Assembly: GCA_964196085.1 (NCBI GenBank)
Contig: CAXMSI010000002.1
Span: 1 to 27,857 of the forward strand
DNA length: 27,857 bases
Origin: an uncultured Acidimicrobiia bacterium
GTDB lineage: Bacteria; Actinomycetota; Acidimicrobiia; Spongiisociales; JAENVV01
Direction: 5' to 3'
The position numbers and the translations under genes are program-made. This document shows positions 7,557 to 19,638 of this stretch, piece after piece. The stretch's first letter is position 1. The number at the start of each line of letters is the position of its first letter. The notes below the pieces were generated by a model. It was not told the DNA's origin, ran no database searches, and saw nothing but the letters and a program-made list of their open reading frames with translations.

Positions 7557-8171
7557 ATGAGCAAGAATACAGACATCCCCCGAGCGACCGTGAATCGCCT
7601 CCCCCGCTATCTCGCCGCTCTTGGGGCACTACCTAGGACCACAGTGACCCTGCGGTCGGCTGAGCTTTCTGCTGTCACCAACTTCTCGGACTCTTCGATC
7701 CGCAAGGATCTCTCACTGCTGAAGGTGTCAGGAACCCGAGGCGTTGGGTACGACGTTGTCCATCTTCAGGAAGCGATTAGGAAGACACTCGGTCTGGAAA
7801 AGGAACGCAATATCGCTCTCATCGGCGCGGGCAACCTCGGTTCAGCTTTGGCAAACTACCGGGGGCTTCTAGACGCGGGTTTTCTACTCACCAACATCTT
7901 TGATGCTGGCGCACACACTATTGGTTCGATCGTCGGCGGACTCGTCGTGCAACCCATGGAGGAACTGCACTCAATGGAGAACGTCTCCATCGCGATTCTG
8001 GCAGTCCCTCAGCGAGCCGCACAGGGAGTGGCCGATCGGCTGCTTGAAGCGGGGATCACGTCAATCTTGAACTTCGCGCCCAAGATGCTGAACCTTCCGA
8101 CGGGAGTCATCTCAAGAAACGTTGATCTCTCTACAGAACTCCAGGTCTTGGCGTACTTCGATCAGGGATGA
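7557..8171 (+). CDS. rex: Redox-sensing transcriptional repressor Rex
   Basis: wHTH motifs IPRATVNRLPRY and IRKDLS...GTRGVGYDV; Rossmann IGAGNLGSAL; ILNFAP...RNVDLSTEL. Confidence 0.95.
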   Translation: MSKNTDIPRATVNRLPRYLAALGALPRTTVTLRSAELSAVTNFSDSSIRKDLSLLKVSGTRGVGYDVVHLQEAIRKTLGLEKERNIALIGAGNLGSALANYRGLLDAGFLLTNIFDAGAHTIGSIVGGLVVQPMEELHSMENVSIAILAVPQRAAQGVADRLLEAGITSILNFAPKMLNLPTGVISRNVDLSTELQVLAYFDQG

Positions 8172-9365: not shown

Positions 9366-9399
9366 CACGTGAGAGTCGGCTAGCGTCGGCTCTCACGTG
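9366..9399. repeat. Inverted repeat / RNA hairpin between the secreted-protein gene and the ECF sigma gene
   Basis: CACGTGAGAG (9366-9375) pairs perfectly with CTCTCACGTG (9390-9399). The stem extends 5 bp inward with G-U pairs around a TAGC loop. Confidence 0.8.
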
Positions 9400-9972
9400 G
9401 ATCTAATGGCAGATGAACTCGACGAGTTGGTGGCTGGCATCGTTGCGGGAAGCAACGAGGCCTTTCACCGCGTGTATCACCTCCTCGCAGGCCAACTCGC
9501 CGGCTTTGCTTTCCGTCAGCTCCGAGACCGAGGAGCAGCCGAGGACACTGTGCAACAGGCGTTCCTTGAGTTGGCCCGAACATCAGACGATTTCCGGGGC
9601 GACGGCCGAGGCCTTAGATCTTGGCTGTACGCAAGTGTTCGGTTTCGATGTGCCGATGAACATAGGCGCAGAGCACGCCGACAAGAACGCCCCACTGACA
9701 CCGTCCCCGACGCCCCTGCTCTCGAACCAGTCGACAATGAACTCAGTCCCGAACTCGTGTCTGCCCTTCAAACTCTCAACCCCCGCCAACGCGACATGAT
9801 TGAGCTACGCCACATTGATGGGCTGAGCGGACAAGAGATAGCTGACGTGCTGGGGATGCGGCGCCCGGCAGCATATGCTGCCCTCGACCGAGCCGAAGCT
9901 GCCCTACGTAAAGAATTCGGCCATCGACTCGCACCCGGCGTCTCTACCAATAATGAGGAGAGGAGCACCTGA
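9397..9972 (+). CDS. ECF sigma-70 factor
   Basis: Region 2 AEDTVQQAFL...LRSWLY and region 4 LNPRQRDMIELRHIDGLSGQEIADVLG. Start is GTG 9397 or ATG 9406. Confidence 0.92.
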   Translation: MDLMADELDELVAGIVAGSNEAFHRVYHLLAGQLAGFAFRQLRDRGAAEDTVQQAFLELARTSDDFRGDGRGLRSWLYASVRFRCADEHRRRARRQERPTDTVPDAPALEPVDNELSPELVSALQTLNPRQRDMIELRHIDGLSGQEIADVLGMRRPAAYAALDRAEAALRKEFGHRLAPGVSTNNEERST

Positions 9973-10037: not shown

Positions 10038-10598
10038 ATGGACTCTCACCTTGCCGAGATTGACACTGTTCTCGCTTCACGACGGGCGACACCAGTCAGG
10101 AAGGTGAGGCTGCCGGTAATGCGATGGGTTGCCGCAGCCGTAATCCTGCTCGGCATAGGTGCCCCGACTGTCGTAGTCGCATCAGCCAACAGCCTTCCAG
10201 GGGATCTGCTCTACCCCATAAAGCAGATCGTTGAGCCCATCTTGATTCGTTTCGACCCTGAAGTCGTCGCTCGCCACCGCATCGAGGAGGTCATAGAATT
10301 GCGCGTGCGGAACCTCCCAACTGACGACGTTCTCCGCGAAGCCGAAGAGGCAGTGGACCGCCTGCCATCAGACTCGCCACTCCGTGATGAACTCGCCGAC
10401 CTCGAGACCCGGGATCAACCCAGCGACTCACCACCAACGAGCACCGTGCCACCTACTGACACCACTGGGCGCCCGCCTGAGACCTCGACACGAACCACCC
10501 AAGCGTCAGACATCTCTGGTGCCACAGTCCCAAGAACCACAACCGTCACAACTCCACCAGATAGAACCACAACCACCCCGCCTGAGGGTGACCGCTGA
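10038..10598 (+). CDS. Putative membrane-anchored anti-sigma factor (DUF5667-like domain, Thr/Pro-rich tail)
   Basis: One TM helix followed by ANSLPGDLLYPIKQIVE (DUF5667-like), directly downstream of the ECF sigma. The frame is open upstream to 9957, so the true start may be earlier. Confidence 0.7.
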   Translation: MDSHLAEIDTVLASRRATPVRKVRLPVMRWVAAAVILLGIGAPTVVVASANSLPGDLLYPIKQIVEPILIRFDPEVVARHRIEEVIELRVRNLPTDDVLREAEEAVDRLPSDSPLRDELADLETRDQPSDSPPTSTVPPTDTTGRPPETSTRTTQASDISGATVPRTTTVTTPPDRTTTTPPEGDR

Positions 10599-10705: not shown

Positions 10706-11068
10706 CTACTCCATTTCCTTGTCTTGTTCGGACTCGTACTTTGACAAGGCCATGAGAAACATGGTCATCAGGATCAACGAAGCGATCATCCAAGTGAGTG
10801 GAATGATTCGAACTTCAAAAGCATTCATGCCATCGATATCTGCTGGACGTGGTCCACGGGGGGCGTAGAGCACAAACAGCAGCGAGTTGATCGATGTCCA
10901 GGCGAATAGCGCTGCCCCAGAGACCAAGAAAGCGAGCTTTTTGCCCAGGTTCGTCGCGTTGAGAAGGTAAGTGGTCCCATAGAACGTGATAACGGCACCA
11001 ATAGTGATCAGAATCCCGGTCACGAAGAGGTTGGCAGAGAGGAGTCCTCTCATGAATTCCCTAATCAT
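10706..11068 (-). CDS. Small membrane protein, last gene of the cytochrome bc operon
   Basis: Three hydrophobic segments and TNLGKKLAFL. ATGA overlap with the cytochrome c stop codon. Confidence 0.75.
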   Translation of the reverse strand: MIREFMRGLLSANLFVTGILITIGAVITFYGTTYLLNATNLGKKLAFLVSGAALFAWTSINSLLFVLYAPRGPRPADIDGMNAFEVRIIPLTWMIASLILMTMFLMALSKYESEQDKEME

Positions 11069-12450
11069 TCGTCACCTCCAACGTCTGGTCCGCCCAGTGT
11101 TGGGCCCCATAGATACTCTGCGATCAGCTCAAGTTCTTCTTGGGTGAGTAGCCCTCCGAAGCCCGGCATGAAGCCTCGGCCAATGCCGTTGATGCCGTAG
11201 GCCACACCCGAATCTGATCCCGAGGAAATGAAACCGGCGAGGTCACCAACCTCAGCGAACTGCACGTGGGCTCGTGGTGGCAGGAGCGAAGGGCCGAAGC
11301 CACCAGACGCTATTGGCAGTACAAACGGGGACCCAGCCGAGTATCCAGCCGTGTGGCATCGGGCGCAGTTACCCGAGAAAAGGTTTATTGCCTGGGTGGC
11401 CTTTTCCGTATCCCCATCAAAAGTTGCATTTGCAACCGCTTGCACATCAACCGTCCAGTAGGCCGTTTCGGCTGAGGCGATGAGATAAGCCAAGCCACCC
11501 TGAAGTTGGGCAATCACCGCATCAGCACTTTCAGAGAACACCTCAACCGTACTTGTAGCCGACGCGACTAGGTCGGCCTGTTTACTAGCCACGACAAGGT
11601 CGGACTCGATTGCATTTGTTACTGGGTTAAAGCTGTCAAGCGTTATTGCGCTCAGGCCACTTTCGTAGTCGGTCAGCCCAGCAATAAGGTTCTGCATTGC
11701 AACGTTGATCCGTTGCGCTTCATCTACCCGCCCTGGAGCGGCGTGGGCTGCAGCTAGCTTGACTTCTTGAGCGGCGATCATGGCCTCGAGGTTCGCCTCA
11801 GCATTGTTTCGGTAGCCGTCAGCGGCTGAAACTTCGGCTGCCATCACTTCGACAGCTTCGTCTTGCGGTAACTGCTGCTCTTGGAGATAGTTGAGGATAT
11901 CTTCAACCTGTTGATCGTTCAAGACCCCGCCACCGGCTGTTCCCCAAGCTGGCATTGGCGTACCAGCTCGGCCAAAGACAATCCAGAACTTGACCTCTTC
12001 GCGGGAGTATCGGTACAAGATGGTGTCGAGACGCGGTGCTCCCCAAGTCGTGGAGACTTCTGATTGCGGGTGGATTGTCCCTGCCGCTCCGCCTACGAAC
12101 CCAGGCCCATGGCACCCCTGACAATCAAAACCGCCTTCTGCGGTGGTCGCAGACAGCGCAGCACCACGCTCAAGCGACTCTTCGGCGAAGGCTTCAATGA
12201 AGTCGCCCTGCCGATCTCGTTCGGTAAGGAAATACAGCGGAAGTGTGACGGCAGCGAACGCAGCGAAGATCAACGACCAGAACAAAGCGCGCTCGAGCCG
12301 AGACGTCTCGAGTTCCTTGTTGGACATTGGGGGAGCGAGGTTGGCTGGCACCTCTTCTTGAGCCTGTGATCGCACGGTGGAAACCATGAGGTAGGCAAGC
12401 CAACCAACGATGGCAATGGCAACAAGAACAACAGCGAGACTGTTGATCAC
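11065..12450 (-). CDS. Membrane-anchored di-heme c-type cytochrome of the bc complex (QcrC-like role)
   Basis: Two N-terminal TM helices; CQGCH with distal MPAWG and CARCH with distal MPGFG; a long helical linker between the two domains. Confidence 0.9.
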   Translation of the reverse strand: MINSLAVVLVAIAIVGWLAYLMVSTVRSQAQEEVPANLAPPMSNKELETSRLERALFWSLIFAAFAAVTLPLYFLTERDRQGDFIEAFAEESLERGAALSATTAEGGFDCQGCHGPGFVGGAAGTIHPQSEVSTTWGAPRLDTILYRYSREEVKFWIVFGRAGTPMPAWGTAGGGVLNDQQVEDILNYLQEQQLPQDEAVEVMAAEVSAADGYRNNAEANLEAMIAAQEVKLAAAHAAPGRVDEAQRINVAMQNLIAGLTDYESGLSAITLDSFNPVTNAIESDLVVASKQADLVASATSTVEVFSESADAVIAQLQGGLAYLIASAETAYWTVDVQAVANATFDGDTEKATQAINLFSGNCARCHTAGYSAGSPFVLPIASGGFGPSLLPPRAHVQFAEVGDLAGFISSGSDSGVAYGINGIGRGFMPGFGGLLTQEELELIAEYLWGPTLGGPDVGGDE

Positions 12451-12466: not shown

Positions 12467-13321
12467 TCAAATACATGACGGACCCTTCGGGTACTTCACG
12501 CTCTTATCCGAAGAGCGGGCAGTATTAACGATGCTTCCGGTCTTTGCGATGAGTCGATTCTTGTCATTGATTTCGACGACGAAACGGTCGAGGTTCCTAG
12601 GTGCCGGCCCTGCTTCGTACTCGCCCAGAGCGTTGTACTTTGAGCCGTGACAACCGCACTCAAACCCCTTAGATGAATCGCACCAAGGGACACGGCAACC
12701 CAGGTGAACACAAGTCATGAACAACGCGGTGAGCCCGCCAACTACGGTGGAGTTCTCCTCGAATTGGGATCCGGTGGCCTCCTCTTCGTTGACCGGCACG
12801 ATCCACGCGCGGGCTTCAGCCCAGAAGAGTGGCGAGACAGACCCGTCAGGAAGCCGGACAGCTGCGAGCAGTTCGTCGGCATCCCCAAGATCGATGTCAG
12901 CACCGAACCCGCCACTTACCACCGGCCACATCATCGCAAGCGTACTGAGGCCGAGCGTTCCCAGATAGGCAAAAAACACCATTGCCATTGCTTTGCCGAA
13001 GAAATGGCGCCGGTTGGCTCCTGCTTCCTCTTCAGAAATCTCTACAACTTTGACAACCTCAACCGACCTAACGACAGGCACACTTGCGTCATCATCTTCG
13101 TCTGCCGCGACCAGTAAATCACCTTCGCCAGCCTCGTCTTCGCCATCAGCAGTAGCCACCACCACCGGATCGATAGCTCCCCGATCAGCCTTCGCCGCTG
13201 CTGGCTGCACTTCGCTGCGCCAGTCAGCCGTCGCGGACGATGAACGCCGAAAAGCTACAGCGAAGAGCCCAATGAGGGCGAGTACAAACAGGGAACCGAG
13301 CCCAACTATCAGACTATCCAT
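12467..13321 (-). CDS. qcrA: Rieske 2Fe-2S subunit of the cytochrome bc complex
   Basis: Rieske boxes CVHLGC and CGCHGSKY; GPAPRNLDRF; internal twin-arginine motif NRRHFF before the second TM. Confidence 0.93.
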   Translation of the reverse strand: MDSLIVGLGSLFVLALIGLFAVAFRRSSSATADWRSEVQPAAAKADRGAIDPVVVATADGEDEAGEGDLLVAADEDDDASVPVVRSVEVVKVVEISEEEAGANRRHFFGKAMAMVFFAYLGTLGLSTLAMMWPVVSGGFGADIDLGDADELLAAVRLPDGSVSPLFWAEARAWIVPVNEEEATGSQFEENSTVVGGLTALFMTCVHLGCRVPWCDSSKGFECGCHGSKYNALGEYEAGPAPRNLDRFVVEINDKNRLIAKTGSIVNTARSSDKSVKYPKGPSCI

Positions 13322-14123
13322 GATGCAGCTCCGGGAAGAAGATCCAGTCCTTCAGGTCGTCAAAGAAGATTCCATCGTTCCAGGGGTACGTGAAGTTAAA
13401 GCCGGGACCCCTGAAGAGCACACCAATGATGGTGAGCGTTGCCGAACCCATCATGAATATGGTGTACATAAAAATTGCAAACTTACGATCAGACGGCTTG
13501 TTTGACGGGTTCTTGTCAACGTACGGAATAGCCATGAACCCAATCATTCCAGTAATAGTTGGTACCGAGACTCCGGCAATCTGTGGGTCGAAGTACGACA
13601 ACAGTTCCTGAAGTCCGAGGAAGTACCACGGGGCCTTCGACGGGTTAGGCGTGGCATTGAAGTTGGCCGCTTCAAGAAGCGGAGCCTGAAGGATGGTCGA
13701 CAGTATTACCAGCAAGGCAAGCATCGCCAAGAGAGCTCCCAACTCAACGACCACGAGATGGGGCCAGGTGTTGACCTTGTCAGTAGGAGTTGACTTGGCA
13801 CCCTGAATGGCCTTGGCTCGGACAACAGTCAGGAGTCGCTGCGTGCGAACACCTTCGGGACCGGTTTGAGCAGGCTGGGTTGGACGGACCAGCGTTGCTT
13901 GGCCAGGAGTCGAAGCAGCCGGCGAGTGTTCAACCGTTGCGGGCTCAGCGGCTACTGGCGCTTGTTCTACCGCCGCTGGCTCGACTGGGGCGGGAGCCAC
14001 TTCGGCGACTGGAGTCGGCGGAGCCTCACCAGTCATTTGAGCCATAGCCTCGGCTACGGACACGCCCAATGCAGCAGCCCTTGCCTCCGCTGAACGTTGA
14101 AGAAGATGGTCTGGAATCTGCAC
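13314..14123 (-). CDS. Cytochrome b C-terminal part (subunit IV / PetD-like) with an N-terminal tag and Pro/Ala linker
   Basis: TPNPSKAPWYFLGLQELL (PEWY-equivalent), IPYVDKNPS and three TM helices. Confidence 0.9.
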   Translation of the reverse strand: MQIPDHLLQRSAEARAAALGVSVAEAMAQMTGEAPPTPVAEVAPAPVEPAAVEQAPVAAEPATVEHSPAASTPGQATLVRPTQPAQTGPEGVRTQRLLTVVRAKAIQGAKSTPTDKVNTWPHLVVVELGALLAMLALLVILSTILQAPLLEAANFNATPNPSKAPWYFLGLQELLSYFDPQIAGVSVPTITGMIGFMAIPYVDKNPSNKPSDRKFAIFMYTIFMMGSATLTIIGVLFRGPGFNFTYPWNDGIFFDDLKDWIFFPELHHG

Positions 14124-14134
14124 GATCGAATCTC

Positions 14135-14896
14135 CTATAGCGGCCCTGAAATACCGCCATCCTTACGAACTCTCCAGAAGTGGACAGCCATAAAGAAGAT
14201 GATGACGAACGGGAAAAAGATCACATGCAGCGTATACCAACGGAGCAACGTGTCAGCTGAAACTGCGTAGGCTCCGAGGAGCAAGAATTGAACCCCGCCG
14301 CCGAAGACCGGGACAAATGAAGCCATGTTGGTTCCGACTGTCACTGCCCACAAAGCAAGCTGATCCCACGGGAGCAGATAGCCAGTGAAGGAAAGCAGCA
14401 ACGTGAGGAGCAAGAGGATGACGCCAACCACCCAGTTGAACTCACGTGGTGGCTTGTAGGCTCCGTGGTAGAACACACGGCTCATGTGCAGGAAGACGGA
14501 AAGCACCATGAGGTGAGCACCCCATCGATGCATGTTTCGTACAAGCGAACCAAATGCGACGTCAGTGGAGAGCTGTTGGATGTCCTCGTAAGCCGCCGCA
14601 GCTGTAGGCGCGTAGTAGAACATCAGGAAAATTCCTGTGATGGTCAGCATGATGAAGAGAAAGAAGCTGATCCCACCAAGGCAGAGGGTGTAGGAGAGCC
14701 GCACCCCGTGACGCTTCACCTTCACTGGGTGGAGGTGATAGAGCACGTTGTTCATGATCACGTACGAGCGGTTTCGCGGGCTGTCCGAGTATCCCTTCTT
14801 GAAAGGGGAGCCAGGACGAAGGATCGAGTCCATGAGGGAGCTGCCGTGAAGGTCTCCGGGGGCACCTTTGAGTTTCTCGATAAGAGTCTTAATCAT
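14135..14896 (-). CDS. qcrB: Cytochrome b N-terminal part (cytochrome b6-like, four TM)
   Basis: Heme His pairs in MHRWGAHLMVLSVFLHM and LHVIFFPFVIIFFMAVH; FTGYLLPWDQ; ends in GISGPL; Cys in YTLCLGG. Confidence 0.95.
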   Translation of the reverse strand: MIKTLIEKLKGAPGDLHGSSLMDSILRPGSPFKKGYSDSPRNRSYVIMNNVLYHLHPVKVKRHGVRLSYTLCLGGISFFLFIMLTITGIFLMFYYAPTAAAAYEDIQQLSTDVAFGSLVRNMHRWGAHLMVLSVFLHMSRVFYHGAYKPPREFNWVVGVILLLLTLLLSFTGYLLPWDQLALWAVTVGTNMASFVPVFGGGVQFLLLGAYAVSADTLLRWYTLHVIFFPFVIIFFMAVHFWRVRKDGGISGPL

Positions 14897-14901
14897 GGTC
14901 C

Positions 14902-15348
14902 TTACATTCCTCGTACGCCATAGACGTATCCGTTCTTATGGTCGCGGGCGCCCGTATCGACTGCCCAAGGGGACGGAAGTTCAGCTTCTGTGGCCTGGGC
15001 GGCGACTGAACCGTCAAACTTTCCAAGCGTGATGACGTTGGTAGGGCACCGATCAATGCACAGCGCGCACCTTGTGCATGTGTCCTCGTCAACCATGAAA
15101 AACCCAAAGTTCTCCATGTCGTCATTGGGGTTTGTTACATCCTTTGCGTCCGCAATAGCGTCTGTTGACAAATAATGAATGCACTTCCACGGGCAGATGT
15201 CAACACACCCTTCGCACAAGATGCACTCGGACTGGTTGATGTGGAGGAACTGCTTCGGCTTGAGATTGTCTGAGAGGTAACCAGTGTCAACAAGGGCAAG
15301 CTGGTAATCATCACGCATTGGCGGAATTTCGAAATAGGTATCTGCCAT
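14902..15348 (-). CDS. 2x[4Fe-4S] dicluster ferredoxin
   Basis: CILCEGCVDICP and CTRCALCIDRCP. The ATG at 15348 overlaps the upstream TAA (TAATG). Confidence 0.92.
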   Translation of the reverse strand: MADTYFEIPPMRDDYQLALVDTGYLSDNLKPKQFLHINQSECILCEGCVDICPWKCIHYLSTDAIADAKDVTNPNDDMENFGFFMVDEDTCTRCALCIDRCPTNVITLGKFDGSVAAQATEAELPSPWAVDTGARDHKNGYVYGVRGM

Positions 15349-15947
15349 TACGAAGAGACCTTCAGCGGACGACCGTACGGTGACGTGGTGTCGCGCTCTG
15401 ATGGTGCGGCAGGAGGCATCTTGCCCCACTTTTGCACCATGACGGCGAAATAAATCACAATCGCAAGCGACCCAAGATGATAGCCACCAGCAATAGCGTC
15501 CTTAACAAACGCTCCATATACGGGGAGATCGAGGCCCGGAATAGTGAACAGCGCATCTTGAGATGTCCACCCGAGCGGACCTTGAGTGAGATTGAGCCAT
15601 TCAGAAGGAACGACGCCCCAGAGCAAGATGAGTTCAAAGAAAGAAATGAACGCAGCAAACCCAGCCCTCGCCCAACTGAGCTTGCGCCCAGCTACATACT
15701 TGAGTGCGATGCCAGCGAGAAGCAGCTGAGAGCCGCCGAAGCCAATGATGTGGCCAGCAGTGAAGACGGGCCATCCCTTGGGGAAGGTTTCGAGGTAGCC
15801 AGCATCAGTGGGAAGTCCACCAGCATGAGCAATGAATACTCCGAGCGCCAAGGCTCCTAGCCCGAGAGCCATAAGCGCAGCGGCAAGTCTTCCCCTTTTG
15901 GAGTCGCTAATACTTGCTAGCCAGATCCACACACGGTTGGGATTCAT
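15348..15947 (-). CDS. Hypothetical membrane protein, first gene of the cytochrome bc operon
   Basis: About four TM helices; motifs VPSEWL and TSPYGRPL. ATG 15947 lies downstream of AAGGA. The 282-aa ORF-track call is over-extended through the promoter region. Confidence 0.75.
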   Translation of the reverse strand: MNPNRVWIWLASISDSKRGRLAAALMALGLGALALGVFIAHAGGLPTDAGYLETFPKGWPVFTAGHIIGFGGSQLLLAGIALKYVAGRKLSWARAGFAAFISFFELILLWGVVPSEWLNLTQGPLGWTSQDALFTIPGLDLPVYGAFVKDAIAGGYHLGSLAIVIYFAVMVQKWGKMPPAAPSERDTTSPYGRPLKVSS

Positions 15948-16036
15948 TCCGCTGATGCGTCCTTTTAACGAGAGAAACTGTCGCCAACGCTCGACGCGCT
16001 GTCGGCTGTATGTAAGCAGATTGCGCGGCTGCTGGG

Positions 16037-16059
16037 GAATCAAAGAGCCGCTTTGACTC
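16037..16059. promoter_or_regulatory. Palindromic candidate operator in the divergent promoter region
   Basis: GAaTCAAAG-agccg-CTTTGAcTC: perfect 6-bp arms (16040-16045 / 16051-16056) with further outer pairing. Confidence 0.45.
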
Positions 16060-16163
16060 AGGCGCCCTGAAACGCAAAAATGACGATGCACCGCCGATAG
16101 GCGCTCAGCGTCCACTCGTGCCAGACTATCGTGTCCTCGACACTCAATTTCAAGGAGCAAAAG

Positions 16164-17579
16164 TTGGTCACTACCAACGCACCCGCCACCACCCAAGTAG
16201 CGGGACGAACCGACGCTACAGCCAAGTGGGCGCTCCTTATTGGGGCCTTCCTCCTGGCGGCGGCCACGGCCATCTTGTTCATGGCCTGGACGGTATTCAC
16301 GGTTCCGTCAGAAGGAGCTGGATTCCTCGGCTTTGGTCGCCTCTTTCCAATGGCTACCACGCTCACTGTCTTTGGAGCCTTCGTAGCCCTGAACCTGGGC
16401 GTATTGCTCTTTCTTCTCCCTCGCCTCACCGGTGCATCCACCAATCGTTCCGGCACCCTTGCCGCCTTGTTCTGGCTCAGCACAGTCTCAGCCGTGGTCG
16501 GAACTGGAGTAGTTGGGTTCGGCGGCACCGATGGAAGGCAAGGATTTGAATTGCCGTGGCTCGCAGAACTGCTCCTAGTTCTGGGTGTCGGCGGGATTGC
16601 AGTTATAGCAATCAAGGCCCTTTTTGATCGCAAGGAGGATTCGATCTATCCAACCACCTGGTTCATGGTGGGAGGCTTGCTCTCTTTCATCACGGCAATC
16701 GCTGTCGCTAATCTCCCGATCGCTCGGGGGCCAGGAGCCGGTATCCCAGTAGCCTTTGGCCGGGGCGTAGTGCTTTGGGTTTGGATTTTAGGATTCGCAA
16801 TTGGTGCCATGCTCTACCTCGTACCCAAGGAAAGCGGCCGGCCGCTTTTTAGCCGTCAGGTCGCAATAGGTACCTTTGTGAGCCTCATGATGGCGGGCAT
16901 GTTCTACGGACTGTCCACCACACTCTTCGGACCGCTGCCTGATTGGGCAGAAACCGTCGGGGTTGCCATGGGACTACTGCTGCTGGTGCCTGCTGTCACG
17001 GTTCCCGTCCTCCTCGTCAAAACCCTCGACGGTGCCTTCGATCAACTGCAAACTTCTGTTCCCTTGCGGTTCGCTGTTGCCGGCGTAGTTGCCTTCAGCC
17101 TCGGCGCTGCTGTCTCGGCGATCAGTGGGCTTCGTTCATTCGCTGAACTCCTCGGCCTAACAACCTTCCGAGACGGCACCGAAACACTCCTTGTGTTCGG
17201 GGCAGGCATCCTGCTGACATCAGCCTTCGTGTATCACGCAATACCTCGGCTAACCGGCCGCACCCTCCACTCTGAGCAACTAGCTAAACGACACCTTCAA
17301 TTCACCGTGGTTGGTGCCGGTGGAATCACCGTCCTCTTATGGCTCTCTGGGATCGCGACAGGAAGCACCTGGTTGGCTGGAATCAAGTCCAGCCTGTTCG
17401 CCGCATCAGGAGAAGGCTTCTCAGCTTCCTTAACTGCTTCAGAATGGGCCCATCCGTGGCTCCTACTTTCGGGATTCATCCTCTTTCTTGGACAGCTGAT
17501 ATTTGTGACCAACCTGTACCGGACGCTTATCTCAGGTGATGTTGCCCCGGTAGAGATCGTCACGGAGGTGTCCGAGTGA
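16164..17579 (+). CDS. cbb3-type heme-copper oxidase subunit I (CcoN) homologue lacking the canonical His ligands
   Basis: About 12 TM helices with CcoN scaffold motifs FGRLFP, QGFELPW, IYPTTWF, YLVPKESGRPLFS, LPDWAETVG and YHAIPRL. TTG at 16164 follows AAGGAG (GTG 16131 is an alternative). Confidence 0.85.
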   Translation: MVTTNAPATTQVAGRTDATAKWALLIGAFLLAAATAILFMAWTVFTVPSEGAGFLGFGRLFPMATTLTVFGAFVALNLGVLLFLLPRLTGASTNRSGTLAALFWLSTVSAVVGTGVVGFGGTDGRQGFELPWLAELLLVLGVGGIAVIAIKALFDRKEDSIYPTTWFMVGGLLSFITAIAVANLPIARGPGAGIPVAFGRGVVLWVWILGFAIGAMLYLVPKESGRPLFSRQVAIGTFVSLMMAGMFYGLSTTLFGPLPDWAETVGVAMGLLLLVPAVTVPVLLVKTLDGAFDQLQTSVPLRFAVAGVVAFSLGAAVSAISGLRSFAELLGLTTFRDGTETLLVFGAGILLTSAFVYHAIPRLTGRTLHSEQLAKRHLQFTVVGAGGITVLLWLSGIATGSTWLAGIKSSLFAASGEGFSASLTASEWAHPWLLLSGFILFLGQLIFVTNLYRTLISGDVAPVEIVTEVSE

Positions 17580-18331
17580 GCGACTTCCTTACCGCAGCCG
17601 CCACCAACATCGGTGCTCCAGAAGATCTCGTCAAGCGATCAGCTGATGCGCGATCAGAGGCATCGGGATCCAGCGTTGACGATATCCTTGCCGCCTGGGC
17701 TGGCGGAGCGGCAGCACCCGTGGCCGCCGAATCCCCTGCACCGGACGCTGCTATCGCCCCAGAAGCCAATCCGGCCGAACCAGCTGTGTCCTCAGCGCCC
17801 TCAGCCGCCCCAACAGCGCGGGTGGTCACGGTCAGAGACCCTGAGGCTGCCCCGATACTCGTTGGCCGAAGAGAGAGCCCAAAAGCCATGATCCTCACGC
17901 TCCTCGGCCTACTGGCGTTCGGCGTGCTTGTAGGCGCATGGCTGCCGGCGGTGGCCGCGTCCCAAGAGGCCTCGAACCACGTCACCGCCCAACCTCTGTA
18001 CTCGGCAGATGCTGAACTGGGCCGAGAAATTTACTTGGCTGAGGGCTGCTCGACTTGCCACACTATGTCGGTGCGCTCCCTTGAGGTTGACGCCGGCCTT
18101 GGCCTGATCACCGAGCCCGAAGATATTGCAAACTTTTTTGAATCCGTCGAAGGTGTCCGTCGAATCGGGCCAGATCTGGCTCATATAGGCGAACGTATGG
18201 AAGCTAAAGACATTAAAGCCTTCGTCTCAAACCCAACCTTCGTGCGAGCTGACGCTCACCACCCGCCATACAAGTACTTGTCTGCAGATGAAATTGATGA
18301 CCTGACCACATTCCTCTCGGAGACGAAGTGA
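17576..18331 (+). CDS. CcoO-like mono-heme cytochrome c (cbb3 subunit II homologue) with an N-terminal tag
   Basis: GREIYLAEGCSTCHTMSVR and RRIGPDLAHIG match CcoO; one TM helix; GTGA overlap with the upstream gene. Confidence 0.85.
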   Translation: MSDFLTAAATNIGAPEDLVKRSADARSEASGSSVDDILAAWAGGAAAPVAAESPAPDAAIAPEANPAEPAVSSAPSAAPTARVVTVRDPEAAPILVGRRESPKAMILTLLGLLAFGVLVGAWLPAVAASQEASNHVTAQPLYSADAELGREIYLAEGCSTCHTMSVRSLEVDAGLGLITEPEDIANFFESVEGVRRIGPDLAHIGERMEAKDIKAFVSNPTFVRADAHHPPYKYLSADEIDDLTTFLSETK

Positions 18332-19638
18332 TGAGCGACTTCCTATCCGCTGCCGCTAACAACATTGGGGCACCAGAAGAGCTCGTGCAGCGCTCAGCTG
18401 AAGCGAGAGCAGAAGCTACCGGAGCGTCGGTCGAAGACATCTTGGCCGAGTGGGCGGGCGGCGCAGCTGCATCCTCTCCCCCACAAGCTAAGGCGCCAGA
18501 AGCCGAAGCATTAGCATCAACTCCTGCACCGCCCGCGGAGACTCAGATAGAGCCTGCAGCACCAGTCATCGACATCCCCACCAGTCCAGCCGGCGGGCAA
18601 GTAGTCAGAGCGTTCCTCCCAACTCCGGCCACGGTCACACGAGCAGAGGCCATGGCATTCGACCAGGTCACCACCGTTGCCGCTGCCGGGCTCAAGGAGC
18701 GGACCTCGGTGAGAGTCCCTCGCTGGCTGGTGGCCATCTTTGCTGCAATCCCGATCCTTGCTGGTGGATACCTCATCGTGAACTCCGGTGGGGTTGAATG
18801 TGGACAGGCCGGACAACTGGGTGTTGACTTTGCTGGGAACCTCCAGACATGTGAGCAACGAGCCTACGACTTCACACCTGGCGCCTCTGGCGGGGGCGAA
18901 GGCATCGACCTCGTTGCCGAACTTCAGGCCGGAGCGGGGCTCTATCTTGCTGAGTGCTCCTCTTGCCACACAACGGACGGGTCAGCAGGCGTTGGCCCTC
19001 AGCTCAACGGCGGGGCAGTGCTTGAGACCTGGCCAGCATGCACCGATCATTTCAACTGGGTAGCAAGCGGTAGTGCTGGATGGAGCGAAGCAACTTACGG
19101 AGCTCAAGGTAAGCCAGTTGGCGGCGGCGGGCAAATGCCAGGATTCATCCCCAAGCTCACTAACGATCAGATCACTCAGATCGTGCTCTACGAACGAGTC
19201 ACATTTGGCGGTCAGGACATCAGCGAGGCCGGAGAAGACTGCGGCTACGAACTAGAAGCCCCCGGTGTCGAAGGTGAACCAGTAGCCAGCGGCGTTGACG
19301 CCATCGCTGAGCTCACCGCCGGCAAAGAGATCTACACGGCGCGCTGCCAGGCATGCCACCTTGAAGATGGAAGCCAAGGCGTTGGCCCGGTCCTCAACGG
19401 CGGGGCAGTGCTCGAGACGTTCCCAGCATGCGATGCTCAAGTTGAGTGGGTCGGGCTCGGAAGCGCTGCTTGGCCTGAAGACACGTATGGGGCTCAAGCA
19501 AAGCCAGTTGGCTCGGGGATGCCGGGATTCTTAAGTCAAATCAGTATCGACGAAATCAAACAGGTCGTCTTCTACGAGCGAGTTGCATTCGGTAATGCCG
19601 ACCTCGAACAAGCAGCAGCCGACTGCTTCGGCGCTTAA
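18331..19638 (+). CDS. Membrane-anchored di-heme cytochrome c with two duplicated domains and an N-terminal tag
   Basis: CSSCH...QMPGF and CQACH...GMPGF; one TM helix; start is GTG 18328 or ATG 18331. Confidence 0.9.
   Translation: MSDFLSAAANNIGAPEELVQRSAEARAEATGASVEDILAEWAGGAAASSPPQAKAPEAEALASTPAPPAETQIEPAAPVIDIPTSPAGGQVVRAFLPTPATVTRAEAMAFDQVTTVAAAGLKERTSVRVPRWLVAIFAAIPILAGGYLIVNSGGVECGQAGQLGVDFAGNLQTCEQRAYDFTPGASGGGEGIDLVAELQAGAGLYLAECSSCHTTDGSAGVGPQLNGGAVLETWPACTDHFNWVASGSAGWSEATYGAQGKPVGGGGQMPGFIPKLTNDQITQIVLYERVTFGGQDISEAGEDCGYELEAPGVEGEPVASGVDAIAELTAGKEIYTARCQACHLEDGSQGVGPVLNGGAVLETFPACDAQVEWVGLGSAAWPEDTYGAQAKPVGSGMPGFLSQISIDEIKQVVFYERVAFGNADLEQAAADCFGA
18991..19431 (+). repeat. Internal domain duplication (390-bp offset)
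   Basis: 18991-19041 and 19381-19431 are near-identical and share the exact 20-mer CTCAACGGCGGGGCAGTGCT. Confidence 0.85.

What the first reader, a model, noticed from the sequence alone, without database searches (positions are those of the whole stretch)
14019..18468. The same ~30-aa N-terminal tag on three different respiratory subunits from two divergent operons
Seen: subunit IV begins IPDHLLQRSAEARAAALGVSVAEAMAQMTG (about 14019-14123, minus strand). The CcoO-like protein begins APEDLVKRSADARSEASGSSVDDILAAWAGG (17576-17713). The di-heme cytochrome begins APEELVQRSAEARAEATGASVEDILAEWAGG (18331-18468). The consensus is PxxLxxRSA[ED]ARxxAxGxSVx[ED]xxA. The latter two copies are also clearly similar at the DNA level. 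In all three proteins the tag is followed by a long Pro/Ala/Glu-rich linker and then the first TM helix, so it is probably a tethered cytoplasmic helical module. I know of no such tag on canonical PetD, CcoO or CcoP. Inference: a homotypic or heterotypic docking domain that links the bc complex to the pseudo-oxidase module, or a shared handle for an assembly factor, protease or the cytoplasmic ferredoxin.
Basis: partly seen in the sequence, partly recalled or inferred. Interest (0 to 1): 0.86.

Follow-up and report, generated by a model that had tools for sequence, protein, structure and literature searches.

The report
Shared helical handle on respiratory subunits
Three respiratory membrane proteins in this window, and a fourth elsewhere in the genome, begin with the same small uncatalogued helical domain on a long floppy cytoplasmic tether; it is confined to the class Acidimicrobiia and is probably a docking handle, but its partner is unknown.

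Summary
Subunit IV (14016-14123, minus), the CcoO-like cytochrome (17576-17716) and the di-heme cytochrome c (18331-18471) each start with a related 36-47-residue module. A Pro/Ala-rich linker of 60-87 residues and the first membrane helix follow. A profile of the three copies finds only one more hit in the 1.8-Mb genome, on a multi-pass membrane protein. The module is translated: it has SD-spaced starts, and third codon positions vary most. AlphaFold2 predicts a confident three-helix mini-domain. Pfam, NCBIfam, the ESM Atlas and Foldseek against the PDB gave no match. It occurs in 40 of 41 relatives of the same order, in 1-7 tandem copies. Its carriers are bc-operon proteins, cbb3-like module cytochromes and a membrane protein encoded beside the aa3 oxidase genes. 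Its second helix is homologous to a shorter box (consensus TEIPEHLLKRS) found in 113 of 121 genomes of the class and in 0 of 277 other Actinomycetota. The tags come in two flavours, a bc type and an oxidase type. Function is inferred only: most likely a tethered docking handle with an unknown partner. This scan has already found the same module in at least eight other Acidimicrobiia genomes. I found no published description.

The parts
14016..14123 (-). Tag on subunit IV (PetD-like), residues 1-36. This is the bc flavour: helices 2 and 3 only. It starts at GTG 14123, with AGGAG 7 nt upstream.
13758..14015 (-). Pro/Ala-rich cytoplasmic linker of subunit IV (residues 37-122), ending in the conserved GPEGVRTQRLLTVV stretch just before the first TM helix (residues 123-141).
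13314..14123 (-). Subunit IV gene. Its C-terminal part matches Cytochrom_B_C/PetD.
17576..17716 (+). Tag on the CcoO-like mono-haem cytochrome, residues 1-47. This is the oxidase flavour, with three helices. The GTG start overlaps the stop of the CcoN-like gene, and GGAGG lies upstream.
17717..17887 (+). Pro/Ala-rich linker of the CcoO-like protein, up to the TM helix at residues 105-123.
17576..18331 (+). CcoO-like cytochrome gene (FixO domain at residues 104-242).
18331..18471 (+). Tag on the di-haem cytochrome c (oxidase flavour, three helices). The start is ATG 18331 (or GTG 18328).
18472..18723 (+). Pro/Ala-rich linker of the di-haem cytochrome, up to the TM helix at residues 133-151.
18328..19638 (+). 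Di-haem cytochrome c gene (two Cytochrome_CBB3/Cytochrom_C domains).
10706..11068 (-). Small three-TM protein, the last gene of the bc operon. It has no tag here, but homologues elsewhere carry 3-7 tandem bc-flavour tags (P0016, P0007).
14135..15429 (-). Context: the 2x[4Fe-4S] ferredoxin-like gene (14902-15429) and the cytochrome b6 gene (14135-14896), directly upstream of the tagged subunit IV. The ferredoxin-like protein appears soluble and so would be the only cytoplasmic product of the operon, which makes it a candidate partner (untested).

Best explanation
SHOWN. The tag is a translated, independently folding cytoplasmic mini-domain of 36-47 residues. It forms three helices, or two in the subunit IV subtype. 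It belongs to an uncatalogued family that was found only in the class Acidimicrobiia among the genomes searched. Its central helix (P-x-x-L-[LV]-x-R-S-A...) is homologous to an older box of about 18 residues (consensus TEIPEHLLKRS). Across the class, that box sits on subunit IV (often twice) and on the membrane-anchored cytochrome c encoded divergently from the bc operon. In the window's order the box gained flanking helices and spread to four or five membrane-protein families linked to the respiratory chain, in 1-7 tandem copies separated by Pro/Ala-rich linkers. Two flavours exist: a bc type on subunit IV and the small last bc-operon protein, and an oxidase type on the CcoO-like protein, the di-haem cytochrome and the aa3-linked membrane protein.

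INFERRED. The tag works as a tethered protein-protein docking handle. The floppy linker of 60-90 residues lets the handle reach a shared cytoplasmic or n-side receptor, or the other flavour of tag. That would hold the bc complex and the oxidase-side modules together, or recruit a common soluble partner. Tandem copies would add avidity. The partner is unknown.
For: Real and translated:
- SD-spaced starts.
- Codon-position identity of 81/94/49% between the CcoO and di-haem tags.
- Codon-position entropy of 1.03/0.79/1.71 bits over 122 tags.

Fold:
- AF2 on a 52-sequence alignment gives pLDDT 88.4, with helices at 5-12, 16-30 and 34-41.
- The same three helices appear in the full-length model of the fourth carrier, followed by a disordered stretch at residues 51-100.

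Conservation and range:
- The tag is in 40/41 relatives.
- In a phylum sample it was in 7/7 genomes of the order, gave one weak partial match (E 1.9e-5) in one genome of another order of the class, and nothing in the rest.
- It has 457 hits among 1.84 billion representative proteins, with up to 7 copies per protein.
- The box is in 113/121 class genomes and in 0/277 Actinomycetota outside the class.
- Tag helix 2 matches the box: hhalign probability 97%, E 8.7e-11.

Carriers:
- Classified carriers are only subunit IV, CcoO-like, di-haem, the TM4 family and orf120-like.
- TM4 lies next to COX1-COX4-CtaG in most relatives.

Pointers to docking:
- P, L and R stay invariant even in the box that lacks helices 1 and 3. 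That argues for partner contact rather than internal packing.
- The box also sits at the C-terminus of a small soluble Nfu_N-like protein in distant relatives, so it is portable.
- On a tree of 221 tag cores the flavour label changes 6 times, against 62-69 in the first 10 of 200 shuffles.
- Gene conversion keeps the CcoO and di-haem tags identical in some genomes.
Against: - No partner has been identified, and no interaction was modelled or measured here.
- Neither AF2 models nor Foldseek point to a known binding fold.
- The ferredoxin gene co-occurs with the box throughout the class, so it cannot be singled out as partner.
- The fourth carrier has no known function. Its link to respiration rests on synteny in relatives only; in this genome it lies beside lgt.
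- Kin share labels, so the flavour statistic overstates independence, and 30-residue trees are weak.
- One row of alignment A3 and one of the 40/41 genomes come from the unpublished genome G036.
Confidence: 0.5

Rival explanations
1. Biogenesis or quality-control handle. A lineage-specific chaperone, insertase, cofactor-insertion factor or protease recognises the tag or box while these subunits are made or turned over. It is not part of the working complex.
For: - The tags sit at extreme N-termini, the part that emerges first from the ribosome.
- The fourth carrier lies beside the CtaG assembly-factor gene.
- In distant relatives the box is also on an Nfu_N-like protein, and Nfu_N is a domain of Fe-S scaffold proteins. 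That match is weak (E 0.002, below the Pfam cut-off).
Against: - Up to 7 tandem copies, and internal copies far from the N-terminus, are unusual for a targeting or degradation signal.
- The carriers need different cofactors (c haems, or none).
- No candidate factor was identified.
Confidence: 0.2
2. Homotypic or heterotypic tag-tag association. The bc-flavour and oxidase-flavour handles bind each other or themselves, and so zip the bc complex to the cbb3-like and aa3 modules or cluster them in membrane patches.
For: - Two flavours sort cleanly by side of the chain.
- Multivalency of 1-7 copies.
- All carriers are linked to the quinol-to-oxygen chain by homology or synteny.
- Actinobacteria are known to run obligate bcc-aa3 supercomplexes (general knowledge).
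Against: - In the distant Acidimicrobiia examined, the boxes on subunit IV and on the cytochrome c are nearly the same, not complementary.
- Both flavours are net acidic here.
- No structural test was possible, and the tool returns no coordinates.
Confidence: 0.15
3. Binding to something other than a protein, or a regulatory role. Examples are an n-side membrane surface, a polyanion or nucleic acid, or a redox or metabolite sensor that tunes the chain.
For: - The minimal box is strongly basic (K/R-rich) in distant relatives.
- A Rex-like redox repressor gene lies near the locus here (7557-8171), and also beside a tag-only membrane protein in L152.
Against: - The tags in this window are net acidic.
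- The conserved Ala-rich helix is not clearly amphipathic.
- There is no cofactor-binding motif, and the His of PEHLL is not kept in the oxidase flavour.
Confidence: 0.08
4. A largely neutral N-terminal extension, spread among neighbouring genes by gene conversion and without a specific function.
For: Gene conversion between adjacent tags is evident in relatives: 100% DNA identity in L024 and L064. Linkers are low-complexity and variable.
Against: - Purifying selection: 19 synonymous against 11 non-synonymous codon differences, and 94% identity at second positions.
- Invariant P/L/R/G across the class.
- Retention in 113/121 class genomes.
- A confident fold.
Confidence: 0.05

Closest known systems
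Peripheral-subunit-binding domain (PSBD, Pfam E3_binding PF02817) and tandem lipoyl domains on the Ala/Pro-linked arms of 2-oxoacid dehydrogenase E2 chains
   Same: A helical mini-domain of about 35-45 residues, flanked by long Pro/Ala-rich flexible linkers. Copy number varies between lineages. The PSBD's role is to dock partner proteins.
   Different: There is no sequence relationship: hhalign of the tag profile against the PSBDs of these same genomes gives probability 1.4%, and Pfam gives no hit. The tag sits on membrane respiratory subunits, not on an E2 core, and its partner is unknown.
FtsZ C-terminal peptide and similar bacterial tail motifs on disordered linkers
   Same: A short conserved helical peptide with an I/V-P start, hydrophobic pair and basic residues, held on a disordered tether. 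One peptide is shared as a landing pad. The class-wide box resembles this more than it resembles a folded domain.
   Different: The spacing differs: IPxxLLKR against [IV]PxF[LVM]. The FtsZ tails of these genomes read GIPSFVQG or DVPSFLK. The box is mostly N-terminal, and in the window's order it is built into a three-helix domain.
UBA/CUE/TS-N-type three-helix bundles
   Same: Similar size and helix-loop-helix-loop-helix layout, with a G-x-P loop before helix 2. This resemblance is recalled from memory and is only a lead.
   Different: No Pfam hit even at E<=10, and no such hit in Foldseek against the PDB. The best match had E 5, to designed helical repeats.
Supernumerary extensions and subunits of actinobacterial bcc-aa3 supercomplexes, and the small cbb3 subunits CcoQ/CcoM
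   Same: Lineage-specific additions to the core respiratory subunits, thought to stabilise or organise complexes.
   Different: Those are single, subunit-specific elements. Here one portable module is shared by subunits of different complexes and is repeated in tandem.

Membership tests
PSBD / E3_binding (PF02817) | Sequence or profile match to the E3_binding model | tested here: not met
   hmmscan of the three tags at E<=10 gave no family. hhalign of A3 against the PSBD alignment from relatives gave probability 1.4%.
PSBD / E3_binding (PF02817) | Mini-domain flanked by Pro/Ala-rich flexible linkers | tested here: met
   Linkers of 60-87 residues that are 70-80% P/A/E/V/T/S. AF2 pLDDT is below 50 in the linker.
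PSBD / E3_binding (PF02817) | Located in an E2 acyltransferase chain | tested here: not met
   The carriers are PetD-like, FixO-like, di-haem cytochrome c and unknown membrane proteins.
UBA-like three-helix bundle | Sequence or structural match to UBA/CUE/TS-N | tested here: not met
   No Pfam hit. Foldseek against the PDB gave its best match at E 5.3, to designed toroids.
FtsZ C-terminal peptide type motif | D-[IV]-P-x-F-[LM]-[RK] at the extreme C-terminus after a disordered linker | tested here: not met
   The box reads [IV]P[ED]HLL[KR]R and is N-terminal or internal. The FtsZ tails of these genomes read GIPSFVQG or DVPSFLK.
Sec/Tat signal peptide | Basic n-region followed directly by a hydrophobic h-region (plus twin-Arg for Tat) | tested here: not met
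   The tags are net acidic and helical. The first hydrophobic stretch comes 60-87 residues later.
Canonical PetD / CcoO (FixO) / CcoP-type cytochrome c (the carriers) | Match to PF00032, PF02433 or PF13442 in the body of the protein, with the tag outside the model | tested here: met
   Matches at 153-236 (PetD), 104-242 (FixO) and 198-288 plus 330-416 (cytochrome c). None of them covers residues 1-100.
Acidimicrobiia respiratory tag (family defined here, alignment A3) | Profile match plus position on the cytoplasmic end of a membrane protein, ahead of a Pro/Ala linker | tested here: met
   E 7.6e-24, 1.5e-21 and 7.0e-15 for the three window copies and 1.0e-20 for the fourth. Topology.

The most novel reading that the evidence does not exclude
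The two flavours form a modular 'velcro'. bc-flavour handles (subunit IV, small bc subunit) and oxidase-flavour handles (CcoO-like, di-haem cytochrome, aa3-linked protein) would bind each other, or bind one hub protein, on the cytoplasmic side. The cell could then plug alternative terminal modules onto the same bc complex. That would be a cytoplasmic, linker-mediated way of building respiratory supercomplexes, unlike the membrane-embedded contacts known so far.
Probability: 0.15. Interest if true: 0.8.

Novelty: new variant of a known kind. Interest (0 to 1): 0.6.

Why it matters
Acidimicrobiia, including Candidatus Actinomarina, have many uncultured members, and I found no published description of this gene cluster or its tag. 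A portable handle shared by subunits of the bc complex, a cbb3-like module and an aa3-linked protein would be a direct clue to how these complexes are organised or assembled. It also gives a concrete, cheap bait (a 40-residue domain) for finding the missing partner. In addition, it defines a new domain family and a class-specific marker that is absent from Pfam and NCBIfam.

Tried and rejected
- Pfam at E<=10, NCBIfam and ESM Atlas features (best score 0.60, unnamed Actinomycetota clusters) gave no known family for the tag.
- Foldseek against the PDB was not significant for the tag model or for the fourth carrier (only GPCR-like noise at TM about 0.25).
It found nothing with the di-haem protein. 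It worked with a subunit IV alignment.
- Homology to PSBD was rejected.
- FtsZ tail mimicry was rejected on spacing.
- A signal-peptide reading was rejected.
- Two literature searches found no description.
- The small Nfu_N-like box carrier of distant relatives was not found in this genome, which is 72% complete. It was also not found in three of four genomes of the window's order searched with that query (G014, G035, G195); the fourth, G002, gave only a weak partial match (E 7.6e-6).
Full report
OBSERVATION

The window holds two divergent operons.
- The minus strand carries a 2x[4Fe-4S] ferredoxin-like gene (14902-15429), cytochrome b6 (14135-14896), subunit IV/PetD-like (13314-14123), a Rieske protein (12467-13321), a 461-residue cytochrome c (11065-12450) and a small three-TM protein (10706-11068).
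- The plus strand carries a CcoN-like protein (16131-17579), a CcoO-like cytochrome (17576-18331) and a di-haem cytochrome c (18328-19638).

Subunit IV, the CcoO-like protein and the di-haem protein start with a related module.
- BLASTP gives E 2e-25 for CcoO against di-haem (36/47 identical) and E 1e-9 for subunit IV against di-haem.
- An HMM of the three copies finds only four places in the six-frame translation of the 1.8-Mb assembly. They are the three window copies and one on contig C35.
- The C35 copy is the N-terminus of a multi-pass membrane protein.

IS IT TRANSLATED?

- Each copy begins at a start codon with a Shine-Dalgarno sequence 5-8 nt upstream. The two plus-strand starts overlap the preceding stop codons.
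- The CcoO and di-haem tags are 74.5% identical in DNA, against 33% in the following 150 nt. Identity is 81/94/49% at codon positions 1/2/3, with 19 synonymous and 11 non-synonymous codon differences.
- Over 122 tags from relatives, the mean entropy by codon position is 1.03/0.79/1.71 bits.
- This is the signature of a protein under purifying selection, not of an RNA or DNA element.

ANATOMY

- AlphaFold2 on a 52-sequence alignment (A3) predicts three helices (5-12, 16-30, 34-41) with mean pLDDT 88.4.
- The same helices appear in the full-length model of the fourth carrier. There they are followed by a disordered stretch at residues 51-100 and seven TM helices.
- Invariant residues are R21, A25 and G31. 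Nearly invariant are P15, L18, S22, A23, A27, A29, L38 and G43.
- After the tag come 60-87 residues that are 70-80% P/A/E/V/T/S, then basic residues, then the first TM helix.
- The haem c domains of the two cytochromes must lie outside the membrane and follow a single TM helix. By established b6f structures, the PetD N-terminus is on the n-side. The tags are therefore cytoplasmic (inference from topology).

NO KNOWN FAMILY

- Pfam at E<=10, NCBIfam and the ESM Atlas give nothing for the tag.
- Foldseek against the PDB gives nothing significant.
- The Pfam models for PetD, FixO and cytochrome c match only the bodies of the carriers.
- Two literature searches found no description.

DISTRIBUTION

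- Record titles of related loci place the lineage in the class Acidimicrobiia, and the hits include Candidatus Actinomarina.
- The tag profile hits 40 of 41 relatives of the same order, with 1-7 matches per genome. This count includes the unpublished genome G036, which also supplies one row (L029) of alignment A3.
- In a phylum sample of 301 genomes the tag was found in all 7 genomes of the order. It gave one weak match in another order of the class and nothing elsewhere.
- Among 1.84 billion representative proteins there are only 457 hits at E<=1e-3. Most lie at residues 1-47, with up to seven tandem copies per protein.

CARRIERS

Among the best 150 hits, the full-length ones that could be classified fall into five groups:
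- di-haem cytochrome c (22);
- a roughly 390-residue membrane protein with seven predicted TM helices, called TM4 here (14);
- subunit IV (12);
- CcoO-like (9);
- homologues of the small last bc-operon protein (2, with 3 and 7 tags).

The rest are short fragments or tag-repeat proteins. One hit (P0089) is a COX1-like fragment fused in frame to a tag.

- The window's own small bc-operon protein has no tag.
- TM4 has no Pfam or PDB relative.
- In most relatives examined, TM4 lies directly beside the aa3 oxidase cluster COX1-COX4-CtaG. It is on the same strand in three loci, convergent in about nine, and about 2 kb from COX4 in two.
- In this genome the TM4 homologue is shorter (262 residues) and lies beside lgt.
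- So every classified carrier is linked to the quinol-to-oxygen chain, by homology or by synteny.

AN OLDER CORE

- More distant Acidimicrobiia (records titled Microthrixaceae, Iamiaceae, Ilumatobacteraceae, acIV) lack the three-helix tag. They carry a shorter box, consensus TEIPEHLLKRS followed by a basic Ala-rich stretch.
- The box occurs usually twice on subunit IV, and once on the membrane-anchored cytochrome c encoded divergently from the same bc operon.
- hhalign matches this box to helix 2 of the tag (probability 97%, E 8.7e-11).
- The box is found in 113 of 121 genomes of the class. In a phylum sample it is in 22 of 24 class members and 0 of 277 outside the class.
- P, L and R are the invariant or nearly invariant positions of the box. 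They are the same positions that are fixed in the tag. The box lacks helices 1 and 3, so I infer that these residues are kept for contact with something else, not for internal packing.
- In some distant relatives the box also ends a small soluble protein with a weak Nfu_N-like match. The box is therefore portable and not tied to N-termini.

TWO FLAVOURS AND CONCERTED EVOLUTION

- Tags on subunit IV and on the small bc protein lack helix 1. They read ...PEHLL...EM...
- Tags on the CcoO-like protein, the di-haem cytochrome and TM4 have helix 1. They read ...PExLV...AW.GG.
- On a tree of 221 distinct tag cores the flavour label changes 6 times, against 62-69 in the shuffles printed (first 10 of 200). 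The carrier-family label changes 52 times.
- Two cautions apply to that tree: the alignment is short, and kin share labels.
- In several genomes the CcoO and di-haem tags are identical in protein and DNA, yet differ from their orthologues elsewhere (L024, L064). This indicates gene conversion between the adjacent genes. In this window the two have diverged at silent sites.

MECHANISM

What is shown: a conserved, folded, cytoplasmic, tethered, repeatable module confined to respiration-linked membrane proteins of one bacterial class.

What is inferred: it is a docking handle. The architecture is a mini-domain on Pro/Ala linkers with variable copy number. That mirrors the peripheral-subunit-binding and lipoyl domains of E2 chains, but there is no homology to them (probability 1.4%).

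- The partner could be a shared receptor, the other flavour of tag, or a biogenesis factor.
- The ferredoxin-like protein appears soluble and so would be the only cytoplasmic product of the operon. It is an obvious candidate, but it is present in every locus, so co-occurrence cannot discriminate.
- I considered mimicry of the FtsZ C-terminal peptide. The spacing differs, and the FtsZ tails of these genomes read GIPSFVQG or DVPSFLK.
- I put 0.5 on a docking handle of the working complexes, 0.2 on a biogenesis or quality-control handle, 0.15 on the specifically tag-tag version, and the remainder on the other readings.

EARLIER NOTES OF THIS SCAN

A word search made after most of the work above showed that the same module had been reported from at least eight other Acidimicrobiia genomes, with similar verdicts.
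- From those notes I took two leads and tested them here: the two flavours and the small soluble carrier.
- One note's claim about Saccharibacteria was not tested.
- These notes are not independent evidence.

VERDICT

The docking interpretation is plausible but unproven. The thing itself is an undescribed domain family of a familiar general kind (a tethered interaction module) in an unusual context.

Noticed in passing
G000 contig C35:3692-4480 (+) (locus L004:1465-2253): This is the fourth tag copy in this genome, on a 262-residue membrane protein beside an lgt-like gene. It aligns with the roughly 390-residue TM4 family but stops about 100 residues early, so it lacks the last two or three TM helices.
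   Followed up: partly
window 16131-17579 (+): The CcoN-like subunit I matches COX1/ccoN only weakly (118.8 bits against a cut-off of 583). I did not check that.
   Followed up: no
L024 (G010) and L064 (Candidatus Actinomarina MAG): The CcoO-like and di-haem tags are 100% identical in protein and DNA within one genome, while the best same-family match in another genome is lower. This indicates gene conversion between adjacent genes.
   Followed up: yes
L159, L160, L161 (G221, G246, G129; distant Acidimicrobiia): A small soluble protein with a weak Nfu_N-like match (E 0.002, below the Pfam cut-off) ends in the same box (VPAHLLERS...) after a short acidic linker. It was not found in this genome with that query.
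   Followed up: partly
L152:2118-3647 (protein P0008): A 509-residue protein made of five tandem tags plus about three C-terminal TM helices and no redox domain. It lies beside Rex-like and SAM_HAT genes. In the window a SAM_HAT gene sits directly after the di-haem cytochrome.
   Followed up: partly
window 7557-8171 (+), 9397-9972 (+), 10038-10598 (+): A Rex-type redox-sensing repressor, an ECF sigma factor and a following 186-residue ORF without any Pfam match (possibly its anti-sigma factor) lie just upstream of the bc operon.
   Followed up: no
L007, L011, L019, L014 and proteins P0018, P0047, P0054: In some genera of the same family, subunit IV carries two or three tandem tags instead of one.
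   Followed up: partly
proteins P0014, P0105 (representative library): Some library hits end in ...LSLIHI. This looks like translated sequencing-adapter sequence, so their C-terminal parts may be chimeric. P0105's apparent soluble domain should not be counted as a carrier.
   Followed up: no
protein P0089 (representative library): The C-terminal part of a COX1-like protein is followed in frame by a tag at residues 167-212. This is either a real fusion of CcoN-like and CcoO-like genes or a frameshifted gene call.
   Followed up: no
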